Source: an uncultured Acidobacteriota bacterium (lineage in GTDB: Bacteria; Acidobacteriota; Terriglobia; UBA7540). Taken from it: a DNA stretch of 64,000 nucleotides. The notes beneath the pieces were generated by a model, which worked only from the letters and a program-made list of their open reading frames with translations, ran no database searches and was not told where the DNA came from. Positions 44,293 to 64,000 of this stretch are shown piece by piece. The position numbers and the translations under genes were made by a program. The stretch lies in NCBI GenBank assembly GCA_963804995.1, contig CAWDSK010000005.1, forward strand, positions 256,001 through 320,000, in the 5' to 3' direction. The number at the start of each line of letters is the position of its first letter. The stretch's first letter is position 1.

Positions 44293-44711
44293 GGGGGGTG
44301 TTTTAGCCGGGAGGTTGACGGATTAAGTGGGACCTCGCTCGCTATGCCCCGCGGAGACCAACATCTGGGACAGTTTCATAGCAGGATCACGCAACCCTTT
44401 TCCCCCCTATATCCATGACGAAAGATCATGATTGCCACGTCTTGAAGCGAAGGATGGGGCGCCGTCGCGAAGGTTGAATTTTCGACACATCAATGATTCC
44501 GCCTCCACTTCCGAGACGCCAGCCGAGGGCAAAAGTCATAAACCCGACTCCCCCAGCACTCATCCCTAGATAACCCGATCTGCCTCTCGTACCCTTCCGC
44601 GCACAATTGCGGGCTCCAAGCGCCGCTTCGCGTACGTATTTCAAACCCATCCCGCAAAACTTCAGCCTCGCCGTCAGGGTGTCCCAGGGCGCCACGGCGT
44701 GAGGTAAGTCA

Positions 44712-45111
44712 CTTTTGGGCTACCGGTAGCCCAAAAGCGACGTCGTCCCGCCAGATAATTCATTTTTGGGCTACCGGTAGCCCAAAAGTGACGTTACCCT
44801 ATTGACATCATCCAGTATAGGGATGCTAATCTGTAAACGTGATGAGTGGCGAACCGACAACCCGATGGAATGTGCCTCGCGGCGGCCTGTCGGGAACCCT
44901 TCCGAATCAAAATTGGGACCTTTTTGCCGCGTGGTCGCAGGGTAATGGCGGCAGCCGCACCTCAAAAGCCGCTGCGTGGAGCGTCCTGCGGCCCTGTCAC
45001 GCCGTGTCCCAGCGTCCCACCCAAAGATTTATCGGACAGTTTTGCGTTGCCCCCTTCAGATTTGGGCTACCGGTAGCCCCGCCCTGCATTTTTGGGCTAC
45101 CGGTAGCACAA
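44712..45111. promoter_or_regulatory. Cluster of four palindromes with core GGGCTACCGGTAGC, upstream of the phage-like operon
   Basis: 44712-44737 (26-bp perfect), 44764-44787 (24-bp perfect), 45061-45079 and 45089-45111 (degenerate). Confidence 0.7.
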
Positions 45112-45167
45112 CTGGTTAATTATTCTCTTGACAACACCCCATGCAGTAATGTTACCCTGTATATGTC

Positions 45168-45551
45168 ATGAGCGACGTGTCCACCACCGGAACCAAACGC
45201 GAACGCCGAGGGGCCCCACCTGAGCAAGGCTCAGATCCGAGGGCGCCACGCATCCGCATTGAAGTTCCGCTGGGTACACCGTTCCAGGAGATTCAAGAGT
45301 ACGTTTATCGCCAAGCCTGGCAACTGGCCGGAACGCAGCTCAAGGCCGCGGTTTCTCTGGGGATCACCCCCGAAACGATTTCGCGGTTTTTAAAACGTTG
45401 TGAACGAGACAGGCTTGACTACCCCGGCGCTCAGACGCGTTGGGGCAAAGGCTGCCCGAAGGGGGCGCCGCTCGAAGCGGCGCTTACCCCCGCCCCGGAG
45501 GGCAGCGAAGACTCGACCCTTGTTTCCCCTGGTAAGTGGGGAGGGGAATAA
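45168..45551 (+). CDS. Fis-type HTH DNA-binding protein (candidate cluster regulator)
   Basis: IEVPLGTPFQEIQEYVYRQAWQLAGTQLKAAVSLGITPETISRFL resembles HTH_8. Confidence 0.7.
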   Translation: MSDVSTTGTKRERRGAPPEQGSDPRAPRIRIEVPLGTPFQEIQEYVYRQAWQLAGTQLKAAVSLGITPETISRFLKRCERDRLDYPGAQTRWGKGCPKGAPLEAALTPAPEGSEDSTLVSPGKWGGE

Positions 45552-45633
45552 GAGTCAAGAAGCGGCGGCGATCAGCCGCCAGAATTTAACCTATTGCTCG
45601 TACGGGACGCTGTGCGAGTGAGGGCGGCGGTGG

Positions 45634-46374
45634 GTGCACACGCTGCCGCTGCCCAAAGTGACCAGGCAACAAATACAATTTCTTCTCCGGGTCGCACCCC
45701 CGGCCCTCCAAAGCGAGCGCGAGTACGAAATCCCGGCCTGCATCACCCTGGCGCAAGCGATTCTGGAAAGCGCCACACCCAGGTTCGGCTGGGGAAGTTC
45801 CCGCCTGTTCCGCCTGGCGAATAATCCGTTCGGGATCAAGTACAGCCACAGGCCGGGGGTCGAAAGTCAAAAGTTGAAAGTTGAAAGTGCGCTTGAAAGT
45901 TCGAATTTGAAAGTTCAAAGCCAGGGCGCGGTTGTCAGCGCGGTTTCAACTTTAAACTCTCAACCTTTAACCTCTTCCCTCAACTCTCAACTTTCAACTT
46001 CCGCCCCCGAAGACTACGGCCACTTCGATGTGGCGACCTGGGAATTCATCAACGGGCAAAAGAAAGAAGTTTTTGCACAGTTTCAGCGCTTCCCCGACCT
46101 GACCGAGGCCTTCAAGGCGCACGCGCGGTTGCTTCTTTCGCCGCACTACCGGCCGGCGTACGAGGTGCGTCACGACTGGAAACAGTTTGCGGAGCGGCTG
46201 GGTCCTAAAAAGTCGCAGCAGGACACCGACCATTGTGGGTATTCCACAAACCCCAGCTACTCCGCCTTGCTTATTAATTTGGTTAATACCTATCGTCTGG
46301 ACGACCCCCGCGCACAAGAGTGGCTGTCAACCGGAAAGGATCCCGGTCCGGTGCTGGAGCAACTGTTGGCGTGA
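45634..46374 (+). CDS. GH73 glucosaminidase/FlgJ-like peptidoglycan hydrolase (endolysin), with an in-frame repeat insert
   Basis: ITLAQAILES..GWG.S.L...NNPFGIK, TWEF, F.RF, GYSTNPSY; low-complexity insert at ~45856-46008. Confidence 0.85.
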   Translation: MHTLPLPKVTRQQIQFLLRVAPPALQSEREYEIPACITLAQAILESATPRFGWGSSRLFRLANNPFGIKYSHRPGVESQKLKVESALESSNLKVQSQGAVVSAVSTLNSQPLTSSLNSQLSTSAPEDYGHFDVATWEFINGQKKEVFAQFQRFPDLTEAFKAHARLLLSPHYRPAYEVRHDWKQFAERLGPKKSQQDTDHCGYSTNPSYSALLINLVNTYRLDDPRAQEWLSTGKDPGPVLEQLLA

Positions 46375-46537
46375 TTAGACATAGCTATCAGCTATCAGCT
46401 TTCAGCTCTCAGCTAGGGCGTTGGCCCGAAGGGTGAACCCTGATACCTGAAAGGCGAAGGTTGAACGTTGATAGGTGAAAGCTGATGACTGAAAGCTGAT
46501 AGCTGAAAGCTGACGACTGAAAGCTGATGGAGGTCTT

Positions 46538-47089
46538 ATGAAGTTTCGCAATCTTATTCTTGCAACGGTTTTAGGTATGGTCACTCTCAGCCTGGCCTGC
46601 ACGCCTCCTTCCTGGGCCGTGGAGGCGGAGAACATCGCCAAAGTGGCGCTCCCCATCGTCGAAGGCATTGCCACGATTGTGGGCGCGGGGCCGGCCGTTA
46701 CCCAGGTTGCAAATGACATCAATCTGCTTATCACCTTGTTTGATAGATACCAGTCCACACCAAGCGCCGGCGCGCTGCAGCAGATTCAGGCGGGCCTTGC
46801 CACCGCGAACGCGGATATCCAGCAGATTCTAGCCGCGACGCACATCCAGAATACGGCTACGCAGAACAAAGTGACCGCGATTCTCCAGCTTGTCTTGAGC
46901 GAGTTTTCGAGTATTGCAAGTCTGGTGCCAGAGGCAGTAGGCAGTGGGCAAAAGGCAGTAGGCAGCAAGCCGGCCCCGGAACTTCCGTTCACCGCCTCGC
47001 AGTTCAAGGCCCAGTACAACCGCATCGTGAAGGCGAAGACCGGCGATGCGGAATGCGACAGAGTGTTTGCAGGCAAGGAACTGAAGTAA
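46538..47089 (+). CDS. Lipoprotein in the lysis cassette (possibly spanin-like)
   Basis: GGAGG RBS; MKFRNLILATVLGMVTLSLAC lipobox; helical body. Confidence 0.65.
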   Translation: MKFRNLILATVLGMVTLSLACTPPSWAVEAENIAKVALPIVEGIATIVGAGPAVTQVANDINLLITLFDRYQSTPSAGALQQIQAGLATANADIQQILAATHIQNTATQNKVTAILQLVLSEFSSIASLVPEAVGSGQKAVGSKPAPELPFTASQFKAQYNRIVKAKTGDAECDRVFAGKELK

Positions 47090-47194
47090 TCGGCTCATCT
47101 TTTCATCGGCTCATCGGGCCATCTAAGAACAAAGCCCGTGAGCGGCCGATGAACCGATGAACCGATGGGTCGATGAACCGATAAGAGACTAACT

Positions 47195-48379
47195 ATGGCA
47201 GCCAACCACTCCACAATGCGACTCGGCAAGCGTCCCCGGCGCGACGACCCGCGCACGCTGAAACTGGCAAGGTATCTCCTGCCGGGCGCCTGGGCGGCGG
47301 CGATCGCTCCTCCCTCGAGCTGTGATTACACCCGCGGCATCAAGGGTTGGGGAATGATGCTCAACGACAAGCTCGGCTGCTGCACGATTGCCGCCGTCGG
47401 CCATGCCGTACAGATTTGGACCGCCAATGCCAGCAAGGAAATTACCGTTCCGGACTCTACCATCCTTAGTTATTACGAACGATGGGATGGCTACAATCCC
47501 CAGGATGCATCGACCGACCGGGGTGGCGTTGAGCTCGACGTGCTGAACGATTGGCGGCAGCAGGGATTTAGTGGGCATTCTCTTGATGCCTATGTTTCTG
47601 TCGGGTTAGGGAACAGGGAACAGGGAACAGGAAACAAAGGCCAGGGAACAGGGAATAGGGAACAGGGAACAGGAAACAAAGGCCAGGGAATAGGGAATAG
47701 GGAACAGGGAACAGGAAACAAAGGCCAGGGAACAGGGAATAGGGAACAGGGAACAGGAAACAAAGGCCAGGGAATAGGGAATAGGGAACAGGGAACAGGA
47801 AACAAAGGCCAGGGAACAGGGAATAGGGAACAGGGAACAGGAAACAAAGGCCAGGGAATAGGGAACAAAGGCCAGGGAATAGGGAACAGGGAACAGGGAA
47901 TAGAGGCGGAAGTACAGAACCCAACCCCCAGCACCCAGGGCCCCGTCCCTAGCCCCCAGCCCCCAACCGCCAACTCCGATATTGCTTTGGCCATCTGGCT
48001 TTTTGGCGGGGCTTACATCGGCGTGCAATTGCCCATCACGGCCCAGAACCAGAATGTCTGGGACGTGCCGCAAAATCCCGGACCGAATGACGAGCCCGGC
48101 TCGTGGGGCGGGCACGCGATCTATCTGGTGGGGTATGACACACGGGATACGGGTAGTGTTTTTCCTAACCCCCAGTCCCCAGCCCCCAGCACCCAGTCCC
48201 CAACTTTCACTTGCATCACCTGGGGCAAATTGAAACGCCTGACCTGGGCCTGGCTGGAGAAGTATTGCGACGAAGCCTATGCACTGGTTTCGAAGGATTG
48301 GATCAAGGCGAACGGAATCGCGCCTTCGGGATTCGATTTCGCCACGCTGGAAGCGGACCTGAAGTTAGTCACTGCGTAG
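47195..48379 (+). CDS. Papain-like (C1-type) cysteine peptidase with an internal tandem-repeat expansion
   Basis: MMLNDKLGCCTIAA (catalytic Cys region), WGGHAIYLVGYD (His), CITWG; 14-aa repeat x6. Confidence 0.75.
   Translation: MAANHSTMRLGKRPRRDDPRTLKLARYLLPGAWAAAIAPPSSCDYTRGIKGWGMMLNDKLGCCTIAAVGHAVQIWTANASKEITVPDSTILSYYERWDGYNPQDASTDRGGVELDVLNDWRQQGFSGHSLDAYVSVGLGNREQGTGNKGQGTGNREQGTGNKGQGIGNREQGTGNKGQGTGNREQGTGNKGQGIGNREQGTGNKGQGTGNREQGTGNKGQGIGNKGQGIGNREQGIEAEVQNPTPSTQGPVPSPQPPTANSDIALAIWLFGGAYIGVQLPITAQNQNVWDVPQNPGPNDEPGSWGGHAIYLVGYDTRDTGSVFPNPQSPAPSTQSPTFTCITWGKLKRLTWAWLEKYCDEAYALVSKDWIKANGIAPSGFDFATLEADLKLVTA
47608..47901 (+). repeat. Heptamer-based VNTR (GGGAACA/GGGAATA/GGAAACA/AAGGCCA) with a 42-bp higher-order unit
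   Basis: Encodes (GNREQGTGNKGQG[T/I])x6 plus partial copies. Confidence 0.95.
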
Positions 48380-48486
48380 GAGCTTCACCACCAAGGCACA
48401 AAGGCACCAAGAAATGCCTTGGGTTTCTAACTCATTCAGCTTGGTGTCTTGGTGCCTTGGTGGTTTGACTTTTTCTCGGAGAATTT

Positions 48487-48834
48487 ATGGACCCGCAATC
48501 ATTGCAAGTACAAGCCCTGATCACTTTTCTAACTCCGCTCTTGATTCAGCTCGCCAAGCGCAGCCGGTCACGGGCGCTGGCTTGGATCGATCAGAGCAAA
48601 CCGAATATTTGTATTTTGACCAGCGCTGTGACGGCCCTTTTGACCTGTACGGAGATTGAGGTCATTCACGCTCCTCACAGCCTGACGATTACCTGGCCGG
48701 ACGAGGCCACGCTGGTGCGGGGGATTCTGACTTTCCTGGTGGCGGCGGCAGTGCAATTTGGCGGCCAGCATGTCTTTTACGATTCCTTCTGGCGGCATGT
48801 GGTGCCGACGGAGAAGTTAGAAGCGAGGAGCTAG
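48487..48834 (+). CDS. Putative holin (small multi-TM protein)
   Basis: 115 aa, 2-3 hydrophobic segments, GGAG RBS, lies after the lysins. Confidence 0.55.
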   Translation: MDPQSLQVQALITFLTPLLIQLAKRSRSRALAWIDQSKPNICILTSAVTALLTCTEIEVIHAPHSLTITWPDEATLVRGILTFLVAAAVQFGGQHVFYDSFWRHVVPTEKLEARS

Positions 48835-49070
48835 GAGTTAGAAACGAGAAGTGAGAAGTCAGGAGTGTGTAGTGAGGAGTTAGAAGTTAGAAGTGAGGAG
48901 TTAGGAGTGAGGAGTCAGGAGTGAGTAGTTTTGAGCGAGGAGTGAGGAGTGAGAAGTAAGGAGTAAGCAGTGAGAAGCGAGAGGCGAGAATGAAAGTGTC
49001 TTCTAACTCCTAGCTCCTAACTTCTAACTCCTAGCTTCTCGCTCCTAACTCCTAGCCTTTGGAAACTTCC

Positions 49071-49424
49071 ATGATTTCTGCAGCGGAAATTCAAGCGATG
49101 TTGATCGGCGCCGGGGGGTTTGTGGGCACCAGCGTGGCGGGAATAGGAGCCTTTCGATTTTTCTCCCGCGCCTCGCATGGGGTCCTCACGATTCCCTCCA
49201 GCCTGGAGAGGGGCGCCGAGGCGCTGGAGCGATCGGTAAAAGTCGCCGAGACGCACAACGCCCTCAGCACGACGGTCATGGAGCTGAAGGGCATGCTGAC
49301 CGCGACGCGCGAGGATATCCAGAAAGTGATGCTAGAACGCCAGGAGATCGGCCGTGAACTTCGAATCATGTCACGAAAGATTGAGGGTTTTTCCTGCTAT
49401 GCCGAAGACCAAGAGCAAAGTTGA
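49071..49424 (+). CDS. TM + coiled-coil protein (Mu gp25-like position)
   Basis: N-terminal hydrophobic segment then coiled coil; overlaps the next gene. Confidence 0.55.
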   Translation: MISAAEIQAMLIGAGGFVGTSVAGIGAFRFFSRASHGVLTIPSSLERGAEALERSVKVAETHNALSTTVMELKGMLTATREDIQKVMLERQEIGRELRIMSRKIEGFSCYAEDQEQS

Positions 49425-49704
49425 ATTCGAACTCAACCGCACTGAGATTCTCCGCTACCTGAATGAATGCGGCTTTCAGCCCGTGACCCCGCGGAGCATC
49501 TTGATTTACTTGGACGATAGCCTCCGCCCCGTTTCCGACCAGGCCGTGGAGTTTCAATTGCGCTACATGCGCGATCGGAACTGGGTGGAGCTGGGCAGTG
49601 AGAAACGTATCGGCCGCCCGGAAGTCATCCGTTGGGCGCGCATCACCGCCGACGGCGTCGATGAATATGACCGGCGGGCCGCGGCGCTGGGAGAGGTCAG
49701 ATGA
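49399..49704 (+). CDS. Mu gp26-like winged-helix protein
   Basis: RTEILRYL...VEFQLRYMRDRNWVEL...ARITADGVD pattern, positioned before the TerS-like genes. Confidence 0.65.
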   Translation: MPKTKSKVEFELNRTEILRYLNECGFQPVTPRSILIYLDDSLRPVSDQAVEFQLRYMRDRNWVELGSEKRIGRPEVIRWARITADGVDEYDRRAAALGEVR

Positions 49705-49823
49705 TCGGCTCATCGGTTCATCTTTCCATCGGCTCATCGAATCATTAGCTCTTAGATGACCCGATGACCCGATGGCCCGATGACCCGATAGTCCGATGAC
49801 CCGATTCGGAAAGATTTCAAATT

Positions 49824-50108
49824 ATGACCAGACCGACCCATATCGAAGCACTTGACCGGCGCCTTCCGGGTCTTGCGGACGCGGTGAAAGCCTGGTTCAA
49901 CCAGGGTGTACCCGTGCGCCAGGTCGTGGAGCTGATCCGCCGGCAGTATCACATCGCGGTGCCTCGGTCGACGCTCGGCAACTTTCGGGCCCGGCGCTGG
50001 GCGCGCGATCGCGAGCTTAGGCTGGAGAAGGAACCCGAGGCCAGGGCCACTGCCGATGGGGCCGATGAGTCTATCCGGCAGGCCGCGGCGCCCGAAGCGA
50101 TTCGATGA
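49824..50108 (+). CDS. Small-terminase-like (DUF3486 / Mu gp27 N-domain) HTH protein, paralog 1
   Basis: IEALDRRLPGLADAVKAWF...VVELIRRQY...PRSTLGNFRARRW. Confidence 0.55.
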   Translation: MTRPTHIEALDRRLPGLADAVKAWFNQGVPVRQVVELIRRQYHIAVPRSTLGNFRARRWARDRELRLEKEPEARATADGADESIRQAAAPEAIR

Positions 50109-50185
50109 GTAAGTGATTTAGCCATGGCGTGATGGAGCAATTGTAAAGCCCCAAATCACTCATTGCCAGGAACCGATTAAGGGAG

Positions 50186-53100: not shown

Positions 53101-53306
53101 CGCCGCCGTCCCGGCGGCACAGGCCACAGGCCGGCAAGATGCCGGCGTTACGGTGGGCGCTCCGGTGACGGCGGGGCTGATGGAGCAGATTTTGTAATCG
53201 GGCCATTCACGGATCGGGTCATCGGATCATCGGGCCATCTGACAACAACGATGAACCGATCAATCGAGGGTTTGATGAACCGATGGACCGATGGAAAGAT
53301 GAACCG

Positions 53307-56856: not shown

Positions 56857-56947
56857 ATCGGTAGGGCGTGGATGGCAGGTCGCATACAGGGGGAAACCCC
56901 AGCTACTACCTGCCACGCACCACACAACCTTTTTGGAGAGCGCTACG

Positions 56948-58357
56948 ATGTCAGACGACACAAAGAATTTTCACTTCATCTCCCAGCTTAGTGCGATGCC
57001 GGCCGCGGGCCTGGCGCGCCTTCCGATTCTCGTCACGGGCAGTTGGGTAAAAAACGGGCGGGAGGTTTCCTTCACACTGGATGAGCTGCGCGCTGCAGTC
57101 TCGAACTTCCGGAAACTCGCAAACCACGACATCAACGTTGACTATGACCACGCCTGCGAGGATCTGGAACGAGCTGCTGGCGAGCCTACGCCCAGCGCCG
57201 GGCGCGTCGTGGCACTTCTTGAGCCAGCGCCCTTCGAATCGGGTGATCAGGTGATCGCGAGATCAGGTGAAGAGGAAAGCCGATCACCGGATCACCAGAT
57301 CACCGGATCATCCGATCGTTGGATTCTATATGGCCGCTACGAGCCCACGGACCGCGCCCGCGAACTTATTAAGAACCGGGAATATCGGTATGTTTCAGCG
57401 GCCTTTGCGAAAGACTACCCGGACCGGAAGACCGGTGAGTCCCAGGGCCTGACGCTGACCAGTGTGGCCCTCACCAATCAACCTTTTCTCGACGAACTGC
57501 CGGAAATTTGGCTGGCAACTACAAGTCCGGGGTCCGAAGTTCGGAGTCCGAAATCCCAACCCCGAATTGCAGATCCCGAATCCCTGAACACAGACCGCCG
57601 TCAGGCGGGGAACGGAGGAAGAATTGAAATGGCGAAGCTAACCCTCAGGTGCTCCGCGGACGGCAAACACGAAGCCTACGACGGAGACAACAAGCTCGGT
57701 GAAATCGAACACGACCACCTCTGCCAGTATGCTGCACAGCATTTGGGCATGGCGGCGGGTTCCGAAAAGGACGAAACGGGCGCGCAACTGGCCGCGAATT
57801 TTGCCAGGGAAATCGGCGCAGAAGGCAGATCCCGCGAAGAGATCCGCGGCCTGCTGACGCTCGCGCTCCATCCACTCAAAGCCGAGGTGACACTGCTGTG
57901 CGAAACCATCGGCGCGGACGGCAAGCTCAACAATAGCCGGCTGGACGCGCTCGACGACGGCGGCAAAATCTCCCGCACGGCCTGGCGCCGCGCTAAGGAC
58001 GCCGAGCAGCGCGTGCAGAATGCCTTCCAGCGTGGCCAGATTACTCCGGCCATGATGGCGACGGGCGCGCCGCTGCGTCTGGCGCTTTCCGACGGTGCGG
58101 CCTTCAAATCGCTTATCGAAGACCGTCCGGCCATGGTCAAGCTGAACTCGGTAGTGGGCATCGGCGGCACAGGCACAGAAACTGGTGAGTCGCCGCGTCA
58201 CCTCTTCTCACGCATGGTCGAGGAGAAAAAGCGGCAGCTCATGCAGACGGACAACAGGCTCAGCGAGCTCGAGGCGCACCGCCAGGCGAACGCCCTGGTG
58301 GCCAAGGAAAACCCCGACCTGCTCAAGAACTATCGTGCCGACGCCAAGTCGGCGTGA
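56948..58357 (+). CDS. Mu gpI-like prohead protease / scaffold
   Basis: INVDYDH, SAGRV, TDRARELIKNREYRYVSAAF, LTSVALTNQPFLDEL. Confidence 0.88.
   Translation: MSDDTKNFHFISQLSAMPAAGLARLPILVTGSWVKNGREVSFTLDELRAAVSNFRKLANHDINVDYDHACEDLERAAGEPTPSAGRVVALLEPAPFESGDQVIARSGEEESRSPDHQITGSSDRWILYGRYEPTDRARELIKNREYRYVSAAFAKDYPDRKTGESQGLTLTSVALTNQPFLDELPEIWLATTSPGSEVRSPKSQPRIADPESLNTDRRQAGNGGRIEMAKLTLRCSADGKHEAYDGDNKLGEIEHDHLCQYAAQHLGMAAGSEKDETGAQLAANFAREIGAEGRSREEIRGLLTLALHPLKAEVTLLCETIGADGKLNNSRLDALDDGGKISRTAWRRAKDAEQRVQNAFQRGQITPAMMATGAPLRLALSDGAAFKSLIEDRPAMVKLNSVVGIGGTGTETGESPRHLFSRMVEEKKRQLMQTDNRLSELEAHRQANALVAKENPDLLKNYRADAKSA
57629..58357 (+). CDS. Probable nested scaffolding protein (Mu gpZ-like internal start)
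   Basis: In-frame ATG 57629 preceded by GGAGG at ~57614, just after the protease domain. Confidence 0.55.
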   Translation: MAKLTLRCSADGKHEAYDGDNKLGEIEHDHLCQYAAQHLGMAAGSEKDETGAQLAANFAREIGAEGRSREEIRGLLTLALHPLKAEVTLLCETIGADGKLNNSRLDALDDGGKISRTAWRRAKDAEQRVQNAFQRGQITPAMMATGAPLRLALSDGAAFKSLIEDRPAMVKLNSVVGIGGTGTETGESPRHLFSRMVEEKKRQLMQTDNRLSELEAHRQANALVAKENPDLLKNYRADAKSA

Positions 58358-58531: not shown

Positions 58532-59035
58532 ATGCTTGGAAACCAAGGATTGACAGCGGCCAAGTTCGACACCAATATTCGCGCCTTGCGCGGTACGGTC
58601 ATGGGCTTGCCGGTCACGAATCTCTCAACGGAATCCGATTTCTACGCCGGCCTGCCTTCCGGCTTCAATGTCGTGCCAACGGGTGTTCTGGCTCAGGATG
58701 TGGTTGAGCCCGGCTACCCCCTGACCTCGGAATTGTGGCTCGATCCGAACACGGGCAATCCCATTAACGGCTCCGTGCCTCCGGCGCCTTTCATTTCGCA
58801 AGGCCGCGCCTGGGGATTGATTGTCTTCGCCCCGGAAGCGGAAGTGATCGCGGCGGATACCACCATCCAGGCCGAGGACGACGTGGTCATCGCCGACGCC
58901 TACGGGCGAGTCACGTCGATTCGCAACGTCACAACTGGGAATACTGCCTACGTGGTGGGCAAGGCGAAGTACCCGCCCACCGCGCAAAACCAGAAGATCC
59001 GCATTCAGGTGAATTTGCGGCAAGTGAAGGTCTAA
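58532..59035 (+). CDS. Putative capsid cement/decoration protein (DUF2190-like position)
   Basis: AAGGAGG RBS; GVLAQD...IQAEDDVVIADAYGRV...VGKA; lies between scaffold and capsid. Confidence 0.6.
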   Translation: MLGNQGLTAAKFDTNIRALRGTVMGLPVTNLSTESDFYAGLPSGFNVVPTGVLAQDVVEPGYPLTSELWLDPNTGNPINGSVPPAPFISQGRAWGLIVFAPEAEVIAADTTIQAEDDVVIADAYGRVTSIRNVTTGNTAYVVGKAKYPPTAQNQKIRIQVNLRQVKV

Positions 59036-59243
59036 GAACGCGGGACTGGGGAAACGGGACACGGGAAGAACAAGTCCCGCGCTCCGCGGCCCCTGTTCCG
59101 CGCCCCGGCGTTTCAGCGCCCGCTGTTGAATCCCGCGGCTACGGGACAACGACAGTGCGCGCAATTAGGGATCAACGATTCGTGTAAGGGATTCGGGCCT
59201 TCCCGTGTCCCGAGTCCCGAGTCCCGTATCCCGAGGAAAGAAC

Positions 59244-60185
59244 ATGGAAGTTTCCTTAGCGCATCTTGATCAATTTCTGACCAATTATTCAATCGTGTAC
59301 CGCAACAACGATTTTGTGGCGGGCCGGCTCTTCCCCGACTTCCCGGTCTCGAAACAAAACGATCGCTACCCGATGTTCGGATTCGAACGTTTCAAGGCTT
59401 ACAACACCGAACGCGCCCCGGGCAGCGAGGCCAACGAGATGCCCGGGTGGCGCATGTCGAACGATGAGTATTACTGCGACGGCAAGGCCCAGAAGCAGCT
59501 TATCCCCGACGAACTGCGCGCCAAGTGGGATTTCTCAACGGGACCCGAAGTTTTCACGACCGAGACCCTGGCCGACATCATCGACAAACAACGTGAAATC
59601 CAGGTCTTCAACCTGGTTATGAATTCGGCATCGATCCCCAGCACCACGCTGGCGGGCACGGGCCAGTGGAGTGATTTTCAGAACTCGGATCCCGTGGCTG
59701 CCATTACGGCACAACGCTCCACGATTCTGCTCTCCTGCACCAAGGAGCCGAACACCCTTCTGGTCGGCTACCCCGTCTGGTTGCAGCTCATCCAGCACCC
59801 CATCATTCTTGACCGCTTCAAGAACCACGCCCTGCCGCTCGGCTATCCCACCGATCAGCAGTTGGCCGGGCTCTTCAATGTTGACAACTTTGTGGTTGCC
59901 AAGACGCTGTATGACACTGCCCAACAGGGTATGGCTCACAGCCTCAACTATATCTGGGGCAAGAACGCCGTCCTGGCCTACGTACCGCCGGGACAGGGCC
60001 AGTTGATGATCACCCCGGGCACCACTTTCCGCTGGCTTTATGGCGTTCCTCAGAACGGCGGCATGCTGGTGAAGCGCTATCGGGTGGAGGAGCGCAGCGG
60101 GGACATGATCGAATACCAGACGTACTACTGCGTAAAACTTGTCGTGCCGGGCGCGATGTACGTGTTTAAGAGCGCTGTAGCATAG
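59244..60185 (+). CDS. Major capsid protein
   Basis: LTNYSIVYRN..FVA..LFP, RAPG, QWSD..NSDP, PNTLLVG..VW..L..HP, YIWGKNAVLAY, G.TF. Confidence 0.88.
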   Translation: MEVSLAHLDQFLTNYSIVYRNNDFVAGRLFPDFPVSKQNDRYPMFGFERFKAYNTERAPGSEANEMPGWRMSNDEYYCDGKAQKQLIPDELRAKWDFSTGPEVFTTETLADIIDKQREIQVFNLVMNSASIPSTTLAGTGQWSDFQNSDPVAAITAQRSTILLSCTKEPNTLLVGYPVWLQLIQHPIILDRFKNHALPLGYPTDQQLAGLFNVDNFVVAKTLYDTAQQGMAHSLNYIWGKNAVLAYVPPGQGQLMITPGTTFRWLYGVPQNGGMLVKRYRVEERSGDMIEYQTYYCVKLVVPGAMYVFKSAVA

Positions 60186-60275
60186 CGACGGAAGGAAGTG
60201 AGGAGTGAGAAGCTAGAAGTGAGAATGGTTTGCTTCTAGCTTCTACCTCCTAGCTCCTAGCTTCTGGAGGTTTTG

Positions 60276-60620
60276 ATGCCCAAGTTTCAAGTTCTACAAC
60301 CTATTGAGAAAAACAATGTGATGTACGTTCCCATCGCCAGTAGTGGGCCAAAGCAATTGCCCAGCGCTTGTCATGGGAAGCTCATCCCGGTGGATGCCTC
60401 GGGTGAGATCGAGCTAACCGAAGATGAAGCCAGCATCCTCGTCTACGGCCAAGTTCCCCTGTTCCAGGGCAAGCCGGACCGGATCGGCGGCTCGGAGATC
60501 CGGGAGAAGAAGGCCAAAGAGGATGCGAAGGCGGCCGCCACCAAGGCGGCGGCCGAGAAAGCGGAGTACGAAGAGTTTCAAGCCTTCAAGGCAGCGAAGG
60601 CAGGAAAAAGCAAGAAATAG
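60276..60620 (+). CDS. Hypothetical virion-associated protein
   Basis: GGAGG RBS; IELTEDEA motif; Lys/Ala-rich tail. Confidence 0.65.
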   Translation: MPKFQVLQPIEKNNVMYVPIASSGPKQLPSACHGKLIPVDASGEIELTEDEASILVYGQVPLFQGKPDRIGGSEIREKKAKEDAKAAATKAAAEKAEYEEFQAFKAAKAGKSKK

Positions 60621-60721
60621 GTTGAAAGTCGAGGGTTGAAAGTCGAAAGGTACTTGCCTTCAACTTTTAACATTCACCTTTTGACCTCCGACTAATTGGA
60701 AGTTCTTGAAAGGAGCCAAAA

Positions 60722-61012
60722 ATGGCAGCTTCAGCAACATTCACGACGCTCTTCACCTACCGCTTGGATCGCCGCCAGCTTGTGAGGCGGATCCGGGTGG
60801 ACATCACGGGGCTCGCCAACGGTGCGAACACAATCCCCCACGGAATTGTGGCCCCCAATAATCCGGCGGTGGGCCAAATGCCCAAAGAGGAGATTGTTCT
60901 CCTGACGTCCAACGTGGCCGTACACCGCACCCAGCCGGCCGATGCTACGAATGTGTATTACACAGTCGATTCGGGTGCGGGTACGACGATCTCAGTATAT
61001 GTGACCGTATAG
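60722..61012 (+). CDS. Hypothetical small beta protein
   Basis: AAGGAG RBS, clean ORF within the operon. Confidence 0.65.
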   Translation: MAASATFTTLFTYRLDRRQLVRRIRVDITGLANGANTIPHGIVAPNNPAVGQMPKEEIVLLTSNVAVHRTQPADATNVYYTVDSGAGTTISVYVTV

Positions 61013-61106
61013 GGTGAGCGGCCCTCGCCCATTTGTGATCGCGTGATTGGTGATTTGCGATTTTCAATCACCAATCACCGATCGCCAAATCGCTAATTGA
61101 GGTCTT

Positions 61107-61640
61107 ATGTCCTACACAACTGTAACCAATGTCGCGGCAATGTTCCCCACCTTCACCCGCAACGGGCCGAAGGGACCCTCGGACACGCTCATCCAGACCT
61201 TTATAGATGACGTGGCGGCGGAAATCGATGCGGTCCTACAGCGCCGCTTCCAGGAAGCTTACGCCAGCCTGGGATTCTATGTCTGGCAGGCGGCCTTCAG
61301 CACCGACCAATTGAACCTGTTGGAGAAAATGAACCGTTACGGTGCCTGTGCCCAGCTCGCGGAGGTATTCGAAACTGCCGGGATTGCGTCCGCGTTGCGC
61401 GTCGCGAAGGGTTTTGAGGATAATTTCCAGGAATCGTACAACAAGCTCAACGCTCGCGACCAAGCGGGCAAGCCGCTCCCGCAGGGTGGGGACTTCGATT
61501 ATCTGTTTGATCCGCAGGCCAAAGTCGAAACGCCACGCCCGCAATTGGGTGGCATTGCCGGAGGCGATCAACAACCCAGTGAGACCGATCACGAAGGAAC
61601 GAATGTGAATTTTCGGAAGTGGGACCGGAAAGAATTTTAA
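61107..61640 (+). CDS. Head-tail adaptor (Mu gp36 / gp6-like)
   Basis: MSYTTVTNV...IQTFIDDVAAEIDAVL..R pattern, and position. Confidence 0.7.
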   Translation: MSYTTVTNVAAMFPTFTRNGPKGPSDTLIQTFIDDVAAEIDAVLQRRFQEAYASLGFYVWQAAFSTDQLNLLEKMNRYGACAQLAEVFETAGIASALRVAKGFEDNFQESYNKLNARDQAGKPLPQGGDFDYLFDPQAKVETPRPQLGGIAGGDQQPSETDHEGTNVNFRKWDRKEF

Positions 61641-61728
61641 AGGGTAAAGGATAAAGGGTAAAGGATGAACCTGGCGTCGTTCGCTTTAGCCTTTAACCTT
61701 TACACTTTAACCTTTTGGATAACAAATC

Positions 61729-62301
61729 ATGTCCTGGCAACAAGCTTACCAAGCCCAATTCGCAAAACCGCTGGTCAACCAGCTTATCGCCATCATCCAG
61801 CGTGATCAGGCTGCGGCGCTCGCGATCATCAACACCGCGCGCGCCACTGACGGCAATCAGCCGCTTTACCCTATCGCGGAATTTCACAAGGGTCCCGGTG
61901 CGCGGATGGGCTGGCCCTGGCTCTTCGTGGAGGTCGGCCCCACGAACTTCAATCGCAACAGTGACAAGGCTACCCGGCATCATGAGGTGCGCATCAATTT
62001 GGCGCTCGACACCGGGCAATACGACCAGGAGATGGCCCAGGAAGATGCGCAGGACTACGCGCGCATGCTCGACATGATTATCGCGAGCGCCGGGCCGTGG
62101 CCGTCTCTCGCCGACTGGACGACGGCGTTGCCGATTCAGCATGAGACCGTACAAAGCGGAACCACGGTGCCGAATGCTGGCGGGTCAGTTAGCGATGTCT
62201 TTATTGAATCGCATGTGCCGGCGAAGATCAACGTCCCCGGTGTGGATGCCCCCGTGATGCGCATCACGCTGACGGTACTTTTCGAATTGGAAGAAGTGTA
62301 G
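61729..62301 (+). CDS. Putative tail terminator/completion protein
   Basis: Position before the tail tube; WPWLFVE motif, acidic C-terminus ELEEV. Confidence 0.55.
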   Translation: MSWQQAYQAQFAKPLVNQLIAIIQRDQAAALAIINTARATDGNQPLYPIAEFHKGPGARMGWPWLFVEVGPTNFNRNSDKATRHHEVRINLALDTGQYDQEMAQEDAQDYARMLDMIIASAGPWPSLADWTTALPIQHETVQSGTTVPNAGGSVSDVFIESHVPAKINVPGVDAPVMRITLTVLFELEEV

Positions 62302-62397
62302 AGAAAGAAGCGGTTAGCAAGGACTGGCAGCCAGCGCTCGGCTTAAGGTTTTAGCTGATTGCTGAAAGCTGACAGCAGTCCTTGAAAGGAGCTGAAA

Positions 62398-63186
62398 ATG
62401 CCTCTCGGAACTCCCAGCCCGACCCTGATTCATCAAGGCCCTGGCTGGCTCTATTTGAATGTCTGTGCGCCGGCCACGGGCAAGCGGCACATCATTGTCT
62501 CAGACGGGACGCCCACGCAGCCGGTGTGGTCGGCGTCGCAAGGGGTCACCCCCGGGCAGATGATTGTGGATACCAACGGCAACCTTCAGGAGTGCACAAC
62601 AGGCGGCACAACGGGAAGCCTCGCGCCCGGCACCTGGTGCAACGCAGTTGGCGCCACCACCTCCGATGGTGCGAACGTGATCTGGACTTGCATGGCCGTG
62701 GGCCCGGCTTATCTTTTTGCCGGCGCACTGGAGGGCGCTACCGATCTCGATATCGGAGCTAAGGTGGAAGAAACGACCGCCGACCAGGAAACCCTTCCCA
62801 TCGATGCGGTGATGACCGGCGAAGTGGACTCAGTCGCCGTGACGCTGAAGGAATCCGATTGCGCCAAGTTGCAGCTTTTGGTTCCCCACGGCACGTACGC
62901 CTCAGGCTCTGACAGTGCCTTGCCCACGGGCGCACAGACTTATGAAGAAATCGCCTTTGGCGGCCTCAAGCCTGTGCCCAAGTTCGGAGTGCTGCTCATC
63001 TCGAAGCGCAAGGACCAGAACTCCAAGTTCGTCATCTCCCAAATCTACCGCGCCTATCAAAAGGAGACGGTGAAGCTTCCCTTCCAACGCGGTAAGGAGA
63101 CGACTTTCAAGGTTACCTTCCAAGCCATCGCGGACCAGAACCGTCCAGTTGGCGATCGGGGCGGGAAGGTTTATCGGCAGACGTAG
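62398..63186 (+). CDS. Major tail tube protein (siphovirus type) with an inserted small domain
   Basis: IHQGPGWLY, GALEG, TLKE, IAFGG, FKVTFQA; no sheath gene precedes it. Confidence 0.75.
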   Translation: MPLGTPSPTLIHQGPGWLYLNVCAPATGKRHIIVSDGTPTQPVWSASQGVTPGQMIVDTNGNLQECTTGGTTGSLAPGTWCNAVGATTSDGANVIWTCMAVGPAYLFAGALEGATDLDIGAKVEETTADQETLPIDAVMTGEVDSVAVTLKESDCAKLQLLVPHGTYASGSDSALPTGAQTYEEIAFGGLKPVPKFGVLLISKRKDQNSKFVISQIYRAYQKETVKLPFQRGKETTFKVTFQAIADQNRPVGDRGGKVYRQT

Positions 63187-63250
63187 TGCGCGGAACAACA
63201 GCATCCGTTGTCAATTCCTGATGACTGATAGCTGAGAACTGAGAACCACC

Positions 63251-63833
63251 ATGACTGAAAACGGAATTGCCAAACCCGAAGATTTCAAGCGGGCCGTCGC
63301 AACGCTCAATGTTCGAGCGGGTGATGCTGCCCGCCTCCGGACTCACCGTGCTGCTTTGCCGGCCACCCATTTTCGCGGCGCTGCGGCTGGGCCGCGAAGG
63401 CACGGAACTTCAAGCCAAGATTACGGAAGCCAAGCCGGAGGAGATTAGGCCCGAGGACATCACGGCGTTCTCCGACTGGGTCACGGCAACACTTTCTCGG
63501 CTTTTTGTGCAACCGCGCTTCTCCGGCGCACCCACGTCCGATGAGATCGGCCTGGGCGATATTCTCGTGGAGGATCTGAAATACATATTTCGTTGGCTGA
63601 GGGGCGAGGTCTTTAGTGCAGGGAATAGGGAATCGGGAATGGGGAGTGGGGAAGGTCCCAACTCCCAACTCCCGACTCCCGACTCCCACACTGAAGACCT
63701 CGCGCCCTTTCCTGGCGGACCGCGATCGGCTTCTGTATCTGGCGGAGGTAGCGAAACGCAGCCAGTGCCGGCCCAGCCAGTTGCTGGAACTCAAGGGGAT
63801 GCCGGCCTACTTGCTGGACTGCACCGCGGCTGA
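63251..63833 (+). CDS. Tail assembly chaperone (apparent 1-nt insertion near 63297)
   Basis: MTENGIAKPEDFKRA joins ERVMLPASGLTVLLCRP...LFVQPR...EDLKYIFRW if one base is removed; follows the tail tube. Confidence 0.65.
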
Positions 63834-63894
63834 AATGGTTGTAGCGCGTGACCGAGGCGAGTTTGAGACGGAAGGGAATGTGGTGGAGTGGTGA
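63709..63894 (+). CDS. Frameshift extension of the tail chaperone (GT-like)
   Basis: +1 frame after CCC TTT C gives FLADRDRLLYLAEVAKRSQCRPSQLL...AYLLD; no RBS or start of its own. Confidence 0.55.
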   Translation, partial: FLADRDRLLYLAEVAKRSQCRPSQLLELKGMPAYLLDCTAAEMVVARDRGEFETEGNVVEW

Positions 63895-64000
63895 AGAAAG
63901 CCATCAGCTCTCAGCCGTGAGCGATCAGCTCGTACCCCTCAGCCCCAGCCATCTCCTCCGGGGAGAGGGTGGCTGACGAAGGAGACTGGTGAAGAGTTTC

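What the first reader, a model, noticed from the sequence alone, without database searches (positions are those of the whole stretch)
44700..64000. Candidate host-domesticated, GTA-like Mu-type particle cluster in a probable Acidobacterium
Seen: a co-oriented run of late functions only (regulator, lysis, TerS-like x3, TerL, portal, protease/scaffold, capsid, tail) starts within ~0.9 kb of a host nitrilase. No MuA/MuB transposase, integrase, repressor or replication genes lie upstream, and I see no gpF/gpG head genes. Nearly every spacer carries the same repeat families as the host atp operon and other host spacers, yet most genes keep strong RBSs and open frames. Established: in Mu-like phages the early/transposition module lies directly upstream of the lysis and head genes; GTAs are head-tail clusters without replication genes. 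Inference: long-term vertical residence under selection, i.e. a gene-transfer-agent-like or other co-opted particle. I know of none described for this lineage.
Basis: partly seen in the sequence, partly recalled or inferred. Interest (0 to 1): 0.88.

Follow-up and report, generated by a model that had tools for sequence, protein, structure and literature searches.

The report
Domesticated Mu-type phage particle genes
A soil/peat acidobacterium carries a 32-kb set of phage head, tail, DNA-packaging and lysis genes that has lost the phage's own copying machinery and has been inherited and kept intact like ordinary host genes across most of its bacterial family, so the hosts probably use it to make phage-like particles, although nobody has seen them.

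Summary
The gene run is real: lysis, TerL, Mu-type portal, Mu I protease/scaffold, capsid and tail genes. It extends 13 kb past the window (about 32 kb in all) and lies between host genes.

No transposase, integrase or replication gene lies beside it, and the genome has no strong MuA match.

- The cluster is single copy.
- The capsid gene occurs in 23 of 28 sister species and in 110 of 133 genomes of the family.
- A host flank is shared in 9 genus genomes.
- dtd lies beside it in 30 genomes of 12 other genera.
- Synonymous divergence equals that of host genes, with dN/dS of 0.03-0.2.
- Cluster and host distances correlate (Mantel r 0.74).

Complete Mu-like prophages, with A/B genes upstream of a colinear late module, exist in the same family. 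They confirm the ancestry.

Caveats:
- In this genome TerL has an in-frame TGA and the portal a +1 frameshift. The assembly also frameshifts atpG, so these lesions may be errors.
- Strict tree identity with the host is rejected.
- Phage relatives nest among the resident clusters, which implies gene exchange.
- The function (gene transfer) is untested.

In passing I found a 9.9-kb Mu-type transposable element that carries only capsid and scaffold genes. It may be a satellite.

The parts
44702..45120 (.). Left boundary: four copies of the palindrome GGGCTACCGGTAGCCC. This is the host REP, not part of the phage-derived genes.
   Evidence: Repeat families D9/D10/I9. There are 56 copies genome-wide and none in the relatives' clusters.
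45168..45551 (+). First conserved cluster gene, 127 aa. Candidate small HTH regulator, in the position of Mu C directly before the lysis genes.
   Evidence: Homologs in 3 of 4 relatives at 48-63% identity. The HTH-like stretch was read by eye in the translation. No family match.
45634..46374 (+). Endolysin (glucosaminidase).
   Evidence: PF01832 E 1.5e-20; phrog_3513 endolysin E 4e-22. Present in 4 of 4 relatives.
46538..47089 (+). 183-aa ORF of the lysis region, fast evolving, function unknown.
   Evidence: 34-39% identity in 3 of 4 relatives, dN/dS 0.31-0.51. No family match.
47195..48379 (+). 394-aa phrog_19005 protein. By eye it has papain-like Cys and His motifs. It is interrupted in frame by a roughly 400-nt heptamer-repeat array at 47566-47964.
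   Evidence: phrog_19005 E 2e-30; repeat family D1/D2; translation stays open through the array.
48487..50108 (+). Four small ORFs (48487-48834, 49059-49424, 49354-49704, 49824-50108), conserved in the genus, unknown function.
   Evidence: Identity to relatives is 60-78% for the first three and 39-51% for the fourth. phrog_436 matches 49354-49704; phrog_3929 matches 49824-50108 weakly.
50459..51049 (+). Candidate small terminase, Mu gp27-like.
   Evidence: Lies directly before TerL. Atlas feature scores are 0.94-0.95 to viral clusters, one of which carries PF11985 Phage_Mu_Gp27 in 28% of members. A homolog precedes TerL in the complete Mu-like prophage G143:C47. This is a lead, not proof.
51505..53100 (+). 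Large terminase. An 80-90-nt hairpin-repeat insertion sits in the linker between the ATPase and nuclease domains (about 52226-52314) and carries an in-frame TGA at 52264-52266.
   Evidence: PF03237 and PF17289; translation; sequence. TerL is one open frame in 17 of 22 genus genomes, with different in-frame inserts at the same site. No SD-like motif stands before the GTG at 52330.
53136..53196 (+). Relic second copy of the TerL 3' end, 75% identical to 53039-53099.
   Evidence: Direct repeat D12. Interpreting it as a recombination scar is inference.
53283..55080 (+). Mu-type portal, split into two frames by a 1-nt insertion near 54414.
   Evidence: PF06074 on both pieces. It is a single ORF of 571-813 aa in 4 of 4 relatives. 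The nucleotide alignment shows one extra base in G000.
55246..55764 (+). Conserved 172-aa head-module protein, unknown function.
   Evidence: 56-80% identity in 4 of 4 relatives; 66% identity over 100 aa in another genus, G033.
55846..56856 (+). 336-aa cargo gene at a variable site; not part of the conserved set.
   Evidence: No match in 4 of 4 relatives. G026 has 1541-aa and 505-aa genes at the same site. There is a 42% match to its N-terminal part in G082:C57. The structure model was useless, pLDDT 35.
56837..58357 (+). Mu I-type head maturation protease/scaffold.
   Evidence: PF10123 E 5e-20; phrog_328.
58532..59035 (+). 167-aa head protein, very conserved.
   Evidence: 89-92% identity, dN/dS 0.04-0.08.
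59205..60185 (+). Major capsid protein, Mu gpT-type (phrog_1005).
   Evidence: phrog_1005 E 6e-68. 90-95% identity in 23 sister species. dN/dS 0.03-0.05.
60273..62301 (+). Four ORFs (115, 96, 177 and 190 aa) in the position of head-tail connector and tail-completion genes.
   Evidence: All four found in 4 of 4 relatives at 73-89% identity. The 177- and 190-aa genes are conserved in other genera and in the Mu-like prophages. Their roles are inferred from position only.
62398..63186 (+). Ig-domain protein, candidate tail tube.
   Evidence: phrog_2175; 81-84% identity. The structure model was of low confidence, pLDDT 39, so the role is inferred from position.
63267..64000 (+). 188-aa tail-region ORF. 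The cluster then continues beyond the window, in L001 coordinates: a 276-aa Ala/Gly-rich candidate short tape measure (2047-2877); 150 aa (2894-3346); a 1723-aa beta-rich tail-tip protein with LamG-like leads (3768-8939); 165 aa (9012-9509); 233 aa (9563-10264); a 1647-aa fibre-like protein (10177-15120). The host DUF1015 gene follows on the minus strand (15329-16918).

Best explanation
This is a resident, transposase-less derivative of a Mu-like transposable siphophage. It is a roughly 32-kb late-gene cluster: regulator candidate, endolysin and peptidase, gp27-like TerS candidate, TerL, portal, protease/scaffold, capsid, connectors, tail tube, a short tape-measure candidate and two very large tail-tip or fibre proteins. 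It cannot transpose, integrate or replicate on its own. It is inherited with the chromosome and kept under purifying selection across a family of Terriglobia.

Most likely mechanism (inferred, not shown): in some cells the cluster is switched on, heads are filled by the Mu-type terminase with whatever DNA is at hand (host DNA), the cell lyses through the cluster's own lysis genes, and tailed particles deliver the DNA to kin. That would be a gene-transfer-agent-like viriform of independent origin.

Shown here: the gene content, the absence of early genes, single copy, synteny, co-divergence and selection.

Inferred: particle production, random packaging and transfer.

The copy in this genome carries a stop in TerL and a frameshift in the portal. 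It is therefore either newly disabled or mis-assembled.
For: Gene content.

Absence of early genes:
- No early genes in the 44 kb upstream or downstream.
- No strong phrog_310 (MuA) match in the 7.55-Mb genome.
- The only Terminase_6N and Portal_Mu matches in the genome lie in the cluster.

Genus level:
- Capsid gene in 23 of 28 other species at 90-95% amino-acid identity, but only 70-82% nucleotide identity, the same as the host flanks.
- 23 of 33 cluster ORFs were found in all 4 relatives examined and 29 of 33 in at least one.
- dN/dS: capsid 0.03-0.05, portal 0.07-0.20, TerL 0.12-0.23, the 1723-aa protein 0.08-0.10. Cluster pS is 0.41-0.88, against a host median pS of 0.62 (n=42 flank genes).
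- TerL is one open frame in 17 of 22 genomes despite different in-frame hairpin-repeat inserts. The portal is intact in 4 of 4.
- Host genes lie within 1.5-3 kb of the endolysin in 4 of 4 relatives, with no transposase or integrase.
- The same 216-aa host gene lies 18-23 kb from the capsid gene, in the same orientation, in 9 genomes.
- Mantel r is 0.74, with 0 of 5000 permutations reaching it. Cluster and host trees share 7 of 11 splits, including all the deep ones.

Family level:
- Capsid gene in 110 of 133 genomes and 27 of 30 genera. 82 of the 86 non-genus genomes with a match have exactly one.
- dtd lies 9-24 kb upstream, divergent, on the same contig, in 30 of those 86, spread over 12 genera and both deep capsid clades.

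Ancestry: complete prophages with MuA/MuB upstream of a colinear late module in G143:C47 and G100:C40.

Composition: GC content like the host's.
Against: - In G000 itself TerL has an in-frame TGA and the portal a +1 frameshift. If real, these would stop packaging here. TerL also looks broken in G003, G002 and G013.
- The capsid gene was not found in G007 (95% complete) or G028 (92%), so the cluster is dispensable.
- The locus is not the shared one in G000, G026 and G020.
- The AU test rejects the two-gene host topology for the cluster data (p 4e-35). It also rejects the cluster topology for the host data (p 0.03).
- A/B-bearing phages nest inside the resident clades, with mosaic identities: the capsid protein is 86% identical between the G100 phage and the G100 resident, while tail proteins are 37-52% identical. 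Inheritance is therefore not purely vertical, and a single domestication is not proven.
- There is no expression, particle or packaging evidence. No host regulator was identified.
- The cluster is 32 kb with large fibre genes, which is bigger than RcGTA-type clusters.
Confidence: 0.6

Rival explanations
1. The resident cluster is a helper module in a phage-satellite or split-phage system. It persists because Mu-type transposable elements that lack virion genes use its terminase, portal and tail. Examples are the 9.9-kb capsid-plus-scaffold element, or the host's dealings with complete Mu-like phages. Its conservation would then reflect that interplay rather than host-serving gene transfer.
For: - A 9,921-bp element with MuA-like (phrog_310, E 3e-57), MuB-like, repressor, scaffold-like and capsid genes has no terminase, portal or tail gene. 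It occurs in multiple copies with 5-bp target duplications.
- Its capsid protein is 80-84% identical to the resident one and is sister to it in the tree.
- 5 of the 6 genomes carrying this element also carry the resident cluster.
- Phage and resident head genes are mosaic.
Against: - Most genomes with the resident cluster, G000 included, have no such element.
- G017 has the element but no resident cluster was found there (84% complete).
- A parasite-serving role does not explain family-wide purifying selection on a host-borne cluster.
Confidence: 0.15
2. The cluster is kept for conflict rather than gene transfer. Either it makes killing or decoy particles aimed at competitors, or it is an anti-phage device that is switched on by, and interferes with, infecting Mu-like phages of the same lineage.
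For: - Related active Mu-like phages exist in the family.
- There are two very large, fast-diverging tail-tip or fibre proteins: the 1647-aa protein is 62-72% identical over only part of its length.
- A variable cargo site lies inside the head module.
Against: Terminase, portal and capsid are the best-conserved genes. A tailocin-like killer or a simple interference device would not need them. No defence family was searched for or found in the cluster (the PADLOC library was not run).
Confidence: 0.12
3. It is a defective prophage remnant without function, fixed by chance and slowly decaying.
For: The two lesions in G000; apparent TerL breaks in G003, G002 and G013; heavy invasion by host repeats; absence from some species.
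Against: - Synonymous sites are near saturation while the capsid protein is 90-95% identical; dN/dS is at most 0.23 for all structural genes.
- Frames are kept open through different repeat inserts in 17 of 22 TerL genes.
- The cluster is retained in 110 of 133 family genomes.
- The G000 assembly also frameshifts atpG and 2 of 45 host genes tested, so frameshifts here are weak evidence of decay.
Confidence: 0.08
4. It is still an autonomous temperate phage whose replication or integration genes are among the unannotated small ORFs.
For: Many ORFs have no family match.
Against: - Host genes abut both ends in G000 and in 4 of 4 relatives.
- It is single copy, syntenic and co-diverging with the host.
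- The real phages of this lineage carry recognisable A/B genes.
Confidence: 0.03

Closest known systems
RcGTA-type gene transfer agents of Alphaproteobacteria (Rhodogtaviriformidae; Kogay et al. 2022, PMC9662315, passages read)
   Same: A phage-derived head-tail-lysis gene set without replication or integration genes. It is inherited with the chromosome, co-diverges with its hosts and is under purifying selection. The tape-measure candidate is short and is followed by large tail-tip proteins (the RcGTA tail layout is recalled, not tested).
   Different: No sequence relationship was detected. No PF05065 HK97 capsid is present in the genome, and no GTA family appeared in the Pfam or NCBIfam scans. 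The head is Mu-type, the cluster is about 32 kb rather than the roughly 15 kb I recall, and the host phylum is different. Particle production, random packaging and host regulation are not shown here.
Bacteriophage Mu and Mu-like transposable siphophages, including the complete prophages found here in G143:C47 and G100:C40
   Same: Homologous and colinear late module: gp27-like protein, TerL, Portal_Mu, Mu I protease, gpT-type capsid, then tail genes. A small regulator directly precedes the lysis genes, as Mu C does (Mu gene order recalled).
   Different: The resident cluster has no MuA or MuB, no repressor module and no recognisable ends. It is single copy at conserved loci. The true phages are patchy second copies with longer branches.
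BaGTA (Bartonella) and BhGTA/VSH-1 (Brachyspira), the other independently exapted GTAs (PMC9662315, passages read)
   Same: They show that domestication of tailed-phage particles has happened several times. The evidence type matches what was obtained here: conserved single-copy TerL and MCP, separation from phage homologs, and co-diversification with the hosts.
   Different: Different phage ancestors and different host phyla. For those GTAs, particles and, in some cases, transfer have been demonstrated.
P4 and capsid-forming PICI satellites (recalled; relevant to the 9.9-kb element only)
   Same: A small mobile element that lacks most virion genes but carries capsid-assembly genes, in genomes that hold a full virion gene set.
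   Different: It moves by Mu-type transposition (A/B genes, 5-bp duplications), not by an integrase. It carries only scaffold-like and capsid genes. Helper dependence is untested. My searches found no paper describing a transposable satellite.

Membership tests
Gene transfer agent / viriform (functional category) | Virion gene set of phage origin that lacks the means to replicate, integrate or transpose itself | tested here: met
   Pfam and PHROGs scans of the cluster and its flanks; the same in 4 of 4 relatives; no strong MuA match in the genome.
Gene transfer agent / viriform (functional category) | Vertical inheritance with the host genome and co-divergence | tested here: met
   Shared flank in 9 genus genomes. 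dtd adjacency in 30 genomes of 12 genera. Mantel r 0.74, 0 of 5000 permutations. 7 of 11 tree splits shared. Against this, strict topology identity is rejected (AU p 4e-35) and phage relatives nest among the residents.
Gene transfer agent / viriform (functional category) | Purifying selection on structural genes | tested here: met
   dN/dS of 0.03-0.23 for the head, packaging and tail genes, at pS of 0.41-0.88.
Gene transfer agent / viriform (functional category) | Particles package mostly random host DNA and cannot carry the whole encoding locus | not testable with these tools
   Needs particle DNA. Head capacity cannot be read from the sequence.
Gene transfer agent / viriform (functional category) | Production controlled by host regulation; transfer of DNA to recipient cells | not testable with these tools
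   No RNA run holds the locus. No host regulator or shared promoter was identified. The palindromes at the left edge are REP elements.
RcGTA family (Rhodogtaviriformidae) | Homology to RcGTA head and tail genes (HK97-type capsid and others) | tested here: not met
   No PF05065 match in the genome. No GTA-associated family in the Pfam or NCBIfam scans of the cluster. The capsid is phrog_1005, Mu-type.
Mu-like transposable phage | DDE transposase MuA and ATPase MuB next to the late genes | tested here: not met
   Absent from the cluster and its flanks and from the genome. Present in the true phages G143:C47 and G100:C40.
Mu-like transposable phage | Mu-type head module (Portal_Mu, Mu I protease/scaffold, gpT-type capsid, gp27-like protein) | tested here: met
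   PF06074, PF10123 and phrog_1005. The gp27-like assignment is a lead only. Mu F (PF04233) was not detected.
Mu-like transposable phage | Defined ends with 5-bp target duplications; multiple or variable insertion sites | tested here: not met
   The resident cluster is single copy with conserved neighbours, and no ends were recognised. By contrast, the 9.9-kb element has 5-bp duplications, GTGGG and CTGAT.
Tailocin (phage tail-like bacteriocin) | Tail genes only, no capsid or packaging genes | tested here: not met
   Capsid, portal, protease and terminase are present and are the best-conserved genes.

The most novel reading that the evidence does not exclude
The family-wide resident cluster is the fixed 'virion factory' of a three-way system. 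Host-kept particle genes sit alongside active Mu-like phages that swap head genes with them. Alongside both are 9.9-kb Mu-type transposable elements that carry only their own capsid and scaffold genes and ride in particles built from the resident genes. These elements would be the first transposable phage satellites, and their helper would be a domesticated, non-mobile cluster.
Probability: 0.18. Interest if true: 0.85.

Novelty: new member of a known kind. Interest (0 to 1): 0.7.

Why it matters
Acidobacteriota are among the most abundant soil and peat bacteria, yet almost nothing is known about how they exchange DNA. My searches found no gene transfer agent described for them.

Only three GTA groups with an established genetic basis are recognised: two alphaproteobacterial and one spirochaetal (PMC9662315). 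A particle gene set kept by 110 of 133 genomes of a whole family would be a further independent domestication. It would come from a transposable phage, whose packaging of flanking host DNA makes it a natural starting point (inference).

Because true Mu-like phages and capsid-carrying mini-elements of the same lineage coexist with the resident cluster, the system also offers a natural series for asking how a phage becomes a host organelle, and who exploits it afterwards.

Tried and rejected
- Sequencing runs. No RNA holder was listed. Two DNA runs hold only 0.06 of the sampled words. When laid, they gave short contigs of relatives. None settled the TerL stop or the portal frameshift. One contig has a different 79-letter insert at the TerL linker site. 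No conclusion on habitat, expression or the lesions.
- Structure. The AlphaFold models of the 336-aa cargo protein (pLDDT 35) and of the Ig-domain protein with a 9-row alignment (pLDDT 39) were too poor for any fold search, so none was run.
- Sequence searches. phmmer against PDB found nothing for the 1723-aa, 1647-aa, 196-aa and 336-aa proteins. NCBIfam added nothing beyond the endolysin.
- Left-edge palindromes as operators or Mu ends: rejected. They occur 56 times genome-wide and are absent from the relatives' clusters.
- The 1723-aa protein as tape measure: rejected. It is beta-rich, with LamG-like leads at Atlas scores of 0.84 or below. The 276-aa Ala/Gly-rich protein is the better candidate.
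- Split TerL as two working genes: not favoured. No SD-like motif stands before the downstream GTG.
- Recoding or bypass of the TGA: considered by eye only. I saw no matching take-off and landing codons. Not tested.
- Earlier scan notes looked up by sequence gave no look-alikes.
- The PADLOC library and complex prediction were not used.
- The ends of the resident cluster were not searched for Mu-type terminal repeats beyond the repeat scan.

Full report
WHAT IS THERE

The window is G000:C5:256001-320000. From 45168 to the window end, every credible gene lies on the + strand and belongs to a phage late region:
- a 127-aa protein with an HTH-like stretch (read by eye)
- a glucosaminidase endolysin (PF01832)
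- a 394-aa phrog_19005 protein with papain-like Cys and His motifs (by eye)
- four small conserved ORFs
- a 196-aa protein whose Atlas neighbours include a Phage_Mu_Gp27 cluster (a lead)
- TerL (PF03237 and PF17289)
- a Portal_Mu protein (PF06074)
- a Mu I protease/scaffold (PF10123)
- a phrog_1005 capsid protein (E 6e-68)
- connector-sized ORFs
- an Ig-domain protein

The cluster does not stop at the window end. In L001 (C5:318001-338000) it continues with:
- a 276-aa Ala/Gly-rich helical protein (candidate short tape measure)
- a 150-aa ORF
- a 1723-aa beta-rich protein with LamG-like leads, which is not a tape measure
- 165-aa and 233-aa proteins
- a 1647-aa protein

It ends about 200 nt before a host DUF1015 gene on the other strand. 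Total length is about 32 kb, window 45.2 kb to window-equivalent 77.1 kb.

WHAT IS MISSING

The 44 kb upstream holds the atp operon, acyl-CoA dehydrogenase, glycogen phosphorylase, a RidA-like gene and the nitrilase. It also holds two ordinary DDE IS elements more than 30 kb away. Nothing resembling MuA, MuB, an integrase, a repressor module or replication genes lies on either side.

In the whole 7.55-Mb assembly (92% complete), phrog_310 (the Mu-type transposase) gives only weak DDE-core matches on other contigs. The only Terminase_6N, Portal_Mu and capsid matches are those of this cluster. There is no HK97 Phage_capsid match.

CORRECTIONS TO THE OBSERVATION

1. Two key genes are not open.
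   - TerL is interrupted in frame by a TGA (52264-52266). The stop lies in the loop of an 80-90-nt hairpin made of 7-8-nt repeats, inserted between the ATPase and nuclease domains.
   - The portal carries one extra base near 54414 compared with four relatives.
2. The heptamer-repeat hairpins are a genome-wide feature: 427 arrays, with 183 of 381 20-kb bins holding at least one. This locus is nevertheless the densest bin (18 arrays, next highest 8; about 7 of the 18 are pieces of one long array). Only one array lies in window 1-44700.
3. The four palindromes at the left edge are the genome's REP (56 copies), not phage operators. An earlier scan note on this genome describes a GTAG-type REP.
4. 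I could support one TerS candidate, not three.
5. SD-like motifs precede 17 of 31 nominal starts.

IS IT DOMESTICATED? GENUS LEVEL

Distribution. The capsid gene was found in 23 of 28 other species of the genus. In most it is single copy, at 90-95% amino-acid identity. TerL was found in 22 of 28. Neither was found in G007 (95% complete) or G028 (92%).

Divergence. Over the whole cluster, nucleotide identity to G000 is only 70-82%, the same as for the host flanks.

Selection. Codon comparisons (Nei-Gojobori on tblastn alignments) with G026, G005, G018 and G008 gave the following:

| Gene(s) | dN/dS |
|---|---|
| Capsid | 0.03-0.05 |
| 167-aa head protein | 0.04-0.08 |
| Portal | 0.07-0.20 |
| TerL | 0.12-0.23 |
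| 1723-aa protein | 0.08-0.10 |
| Lysis and small-ORF region | 0.12-0.61 |

- pS for the cluster genes is 0.41-0.88.
- 42 host flank genes gave a median pS of 0.62, amino-acid identity of 0.77 and pN of 0.136.
- The cluster is therefore as old as the species splits and is constrained. Saturation of pS makes these ratios conservative.

Gene set. 23 of 33 cluster ORFs were found in all four relatives and 29 of 33 in at least one. Those not found were two doubtful small ORFs, a 105-aa ORF and the 336-aa cargo gene.

Flanks. In 4 of 4 relatives, host genes stand 1.5-3 kb upstream of the endolysin, with no transposase or integrase. The host genes are peptidase M16, glycoside hydrolase GH38 (a sugar-cleaving enzyme), and an aminotransferase with an oxidoreductase.

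Open frames. TerL is one open frame in 17 of 22 genomes. It is broken in G000, G003, G002 and G013, and cut by a contig end in G022. The portal is intact in 4 of 4. Each species has a different in-frame, stop-free repeat insert at the same TerL linker site, and further inserts elsewhere in TerL and the portal. This is what selection for an open frame under constant repeat invasion would leave.

Synteny. A 216-aa host gene lies 18-23 kb from the capsid gene, on the same contig and in the same orientation, in 9 genomes: G005, G003, G008, G021, G001, G018, G004, G002 and G013.
- It does not in G000 (other contig), G026 (254 kb away) or G020 (other contig).
- In the remaining genomes the contigs are too short to tell.
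- The G000 flanks (nitrilase, DUF1015) are elsewhere in the relatives. Host flank genes of the relatives are scattered over several G000 contigs, so G000 is generally rearranged.

Co-divergence. Data: 14 genomes; nine cluster proteins (2286 columns) against two host proteins, DUF1015 and glycogen phosphorylase (1371 columns).
- Pairwise distances correlate: Mantel r 0.74, 0 of 5000 permutations as high.
- ML trees share 7 of 11 splits, including every deep one and the pairs G022+G026, G010+G019 and G002+G024.
- Against this, the AU test rejects the host topology for the cluster data (p 4e-35) and the cluster topology for the host data (p 0.03).
- So either the two-gene host tree is imperfect or some exchange between species has occurred.

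FAMILY LEVEL

Distribution. With the capsid protein of another genus as query, 110 of 133 genomes (62 of 73 high-quality ones; 27 of 30 genera) have a match. 82 of the 86 non-genus genomes with a match have exactly one. These tallies include seven genomes flagged as unpublished (G063, G134-G138, G140). No locus-level claim rests on them.

Gene order. From TerL to the 233-aa tail gene, the order is kept in G036, G031, G030 and G029.

Locus. In 30 of the 86 non-genus genomes, from 12 genera and both deep capsid clades, the D-Tyr-tRNA deacylase gene (dtd) lies 9-24 kb upstream on the same contig, in divergent orientation. In the others the two genes are on different contigs, mostly in fragmented assemblies. 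In the window's genus they are not adjacent: 165 kb apart in G000. No transposase or integrase was seen in the 20 kb upstream in G036, G031 and G030.

ANCESTRY

Two of the rare second copies are complete Mu-like prophages. In G143:C47 and G100:C40, MuA- and MuB-like genes are followed by early genes. Next come a gp27-like gene (matched in G143:C47 only), TerL, portal, protease, capsid and tail genes, colinear with the resident cluster at 25-58% identity to G000. The closest cultured phages have capsid proteins at 32% identity or less.

In a 12-protein tree, these A/B-bearing phages sit on long branches inside the resident clades of their own host groups (100/100 support). Per-gene identities are mosaic: the capsid protein is 86% identical between the G100 phage and the G100 resident, while tail proteins are 37-52% identical.

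So residents and phages of this lineage have exchanged genes. A single domestication for the whole family, although suggested by the dtd locus, is not proven. A 61-nt relic copy of the TerL 3' end just after TerL in G000 (53136-53196) may be a scar of such an exchange (inference).

THE COPY IN THIS GENOME

The two lesions would disable packaging if they are real. But the same assembly frameshifts atpG in this very window (near 26890-26900). It also shows split alignments in 2 of 45 host genes tested. The portal frameshift is therefore within the assembly's background error.

The TGA keeps the frame on both sides. It is either a true nonsense codon brought in by the insert or a pair of compensating errors in a repeat. 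Public runs did not resolve it. G000's branch in the cluster tree is not lengthened (0.13, against 0.17 in the host tree), so any inactivation is recent.

HOW IT MOST LIKELY WORKS

Shown: a full virion, packaging and lysis gene set without any means of self-propagation, kept by selection and inherited with the chromosome.

Inferred:
- induction in a subpopulation, possibly through the first-gene regulator
- headful packaging of non-specific DNA by a Mu-type terminase
- lysis by the glucosaminidase and peptidase
- delivery by a short-tailed particle with large receptor-binding proteins

This is how a gene transfer agent works. It is not a member of the RcGTA family (membership features tested and not met). 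It fails the defining transposition features of a Mu-like phage while keeping its head module.

LITERATURE

- Searches for 'gene transfer agent' with 'Acidobacteria' (36 papers) and with 'Terriglobia' (0 papers) turned up no described GTA in this phylum.
- Eichorst et al. 2018 (PMC5900883, passages read) report 35 predicted prophages in 24 acidobacterial genomes and two acidobacterial prophage clusters, without a domestication claim.
- A Sphagnum virome paper (PMC12142844, passages read) notes a shared phage-like contig matching Acidobacteriaceae and mentions GTAs only as a general possibility.
- Kogay et al. 2022 (PMC9662315, passages read) recognise three independently exapted GTA groups.
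- PMC12946183 (listing and start of abstract only) describes long-read sequencing of capsid-packaged DNA, the method I would use.
- No supplements were consulted.

EARLIER SCAN NOTES

Earlier notes of this scan list several similar Mu-head clusters in other phyla. One is another domesticated head/short-tail cluster in Acidobacteria (e1-5199719). I found no sequence link to it and its flanks differ, so whether it is the same family is open.

VERDICT

It is a new, independently derived member of the GTA-like/viriform kind in a major soil phylum. Its function is unproven, and the copy in this genome may be damaged.

Noticed in passing
L034:2699 to contig end, with L040:1-5326 (G018:C7 and C20); further copies on G018:C26/C28 and in G013, G009, G017, G022, G024: A 9,921-bp Mu-type transposable element. 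Genes: MuA-like (phrog_310, E 3e-57), MuB-like, Ner-like, two HTH regulators, a 283-aa scaffold-like protein, a capsid protein 80-84% identical to the resident one, and a 568-aa unknown. It has no terminase, portal or tail gene. G018 holds two copies with 5-bp target duplications (GTGGG, CTGAT), 99.8-100% identical. It is a candidate transposable phage satellite. Two literature searches found no description of such an element.
   Followed up: yes
L192+L193 (G143:C47) and L194+L195 (G100:C40): Complete Mu-like prophages: A/B genes, early genes, then a late module colinear with the resident cluster. They nest among the resident clusters in the tree, and their identities to the residents are mosaic.
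   Followed up: partly
window 47566-47964, 52226-52314, and most spacers between 45.8 and 63.7 kb: Hairpins built of tandem 7-8-nt repeats fill the spacers and sit in frame inside genes (TerL, portal and the phrog_19005 protein). Each species has a different insert at the same TerL linker site. This 20-kb bin is the densest in the genome (18 arrays, next highest 8). Why the cluster attracts them is unexplained.
   Followed up: partly
window 26746-27603: atpG (ATP synthase gamma) is frameshifted near 26890-26900 in this assembly. 2 of 45 other host genes tested also show split alignments (C5:~439864, C3:~918720). Consensus indel errors in the assembly are therefore likely.
   Followed up: partly
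window 55846-56856; L025:2341-8540 in G026: A variable cargo site lies between the 172-aa head gene and the protease gene. G000 has a 336-aa unknown there. G026 has a 1541-aa gene and a 505-aa gene with a weak beta-helix match. The N-terminal part of the 336-aa protein has a 42% match in a second-copy cluster of G082.
   Followed up: partly
window 53136-53196: A 61-nt relic copy (75% identical) of the TerL 3' end lies just downstream of TerL and still encodes a TerL-like C-terminal tail. It may be a recombination scar.
   Followed up: no
window 6585-8111 and 11357-13246: Two DDE_Tnp_1 IS transposases flank a TPR-protein gene, far from the cluster and unrelated to Mu A.
   Followed up: no
L045 (G013:C34) 4325-5313: In G013 a fragmented nitrilase homolog (79% identical to the window's nitrilase) lies 1.8 kb after a copy of the capsid-carrying element. 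Its meaning is unknown, and that assembly has many frameshifts.
   Followed up: no
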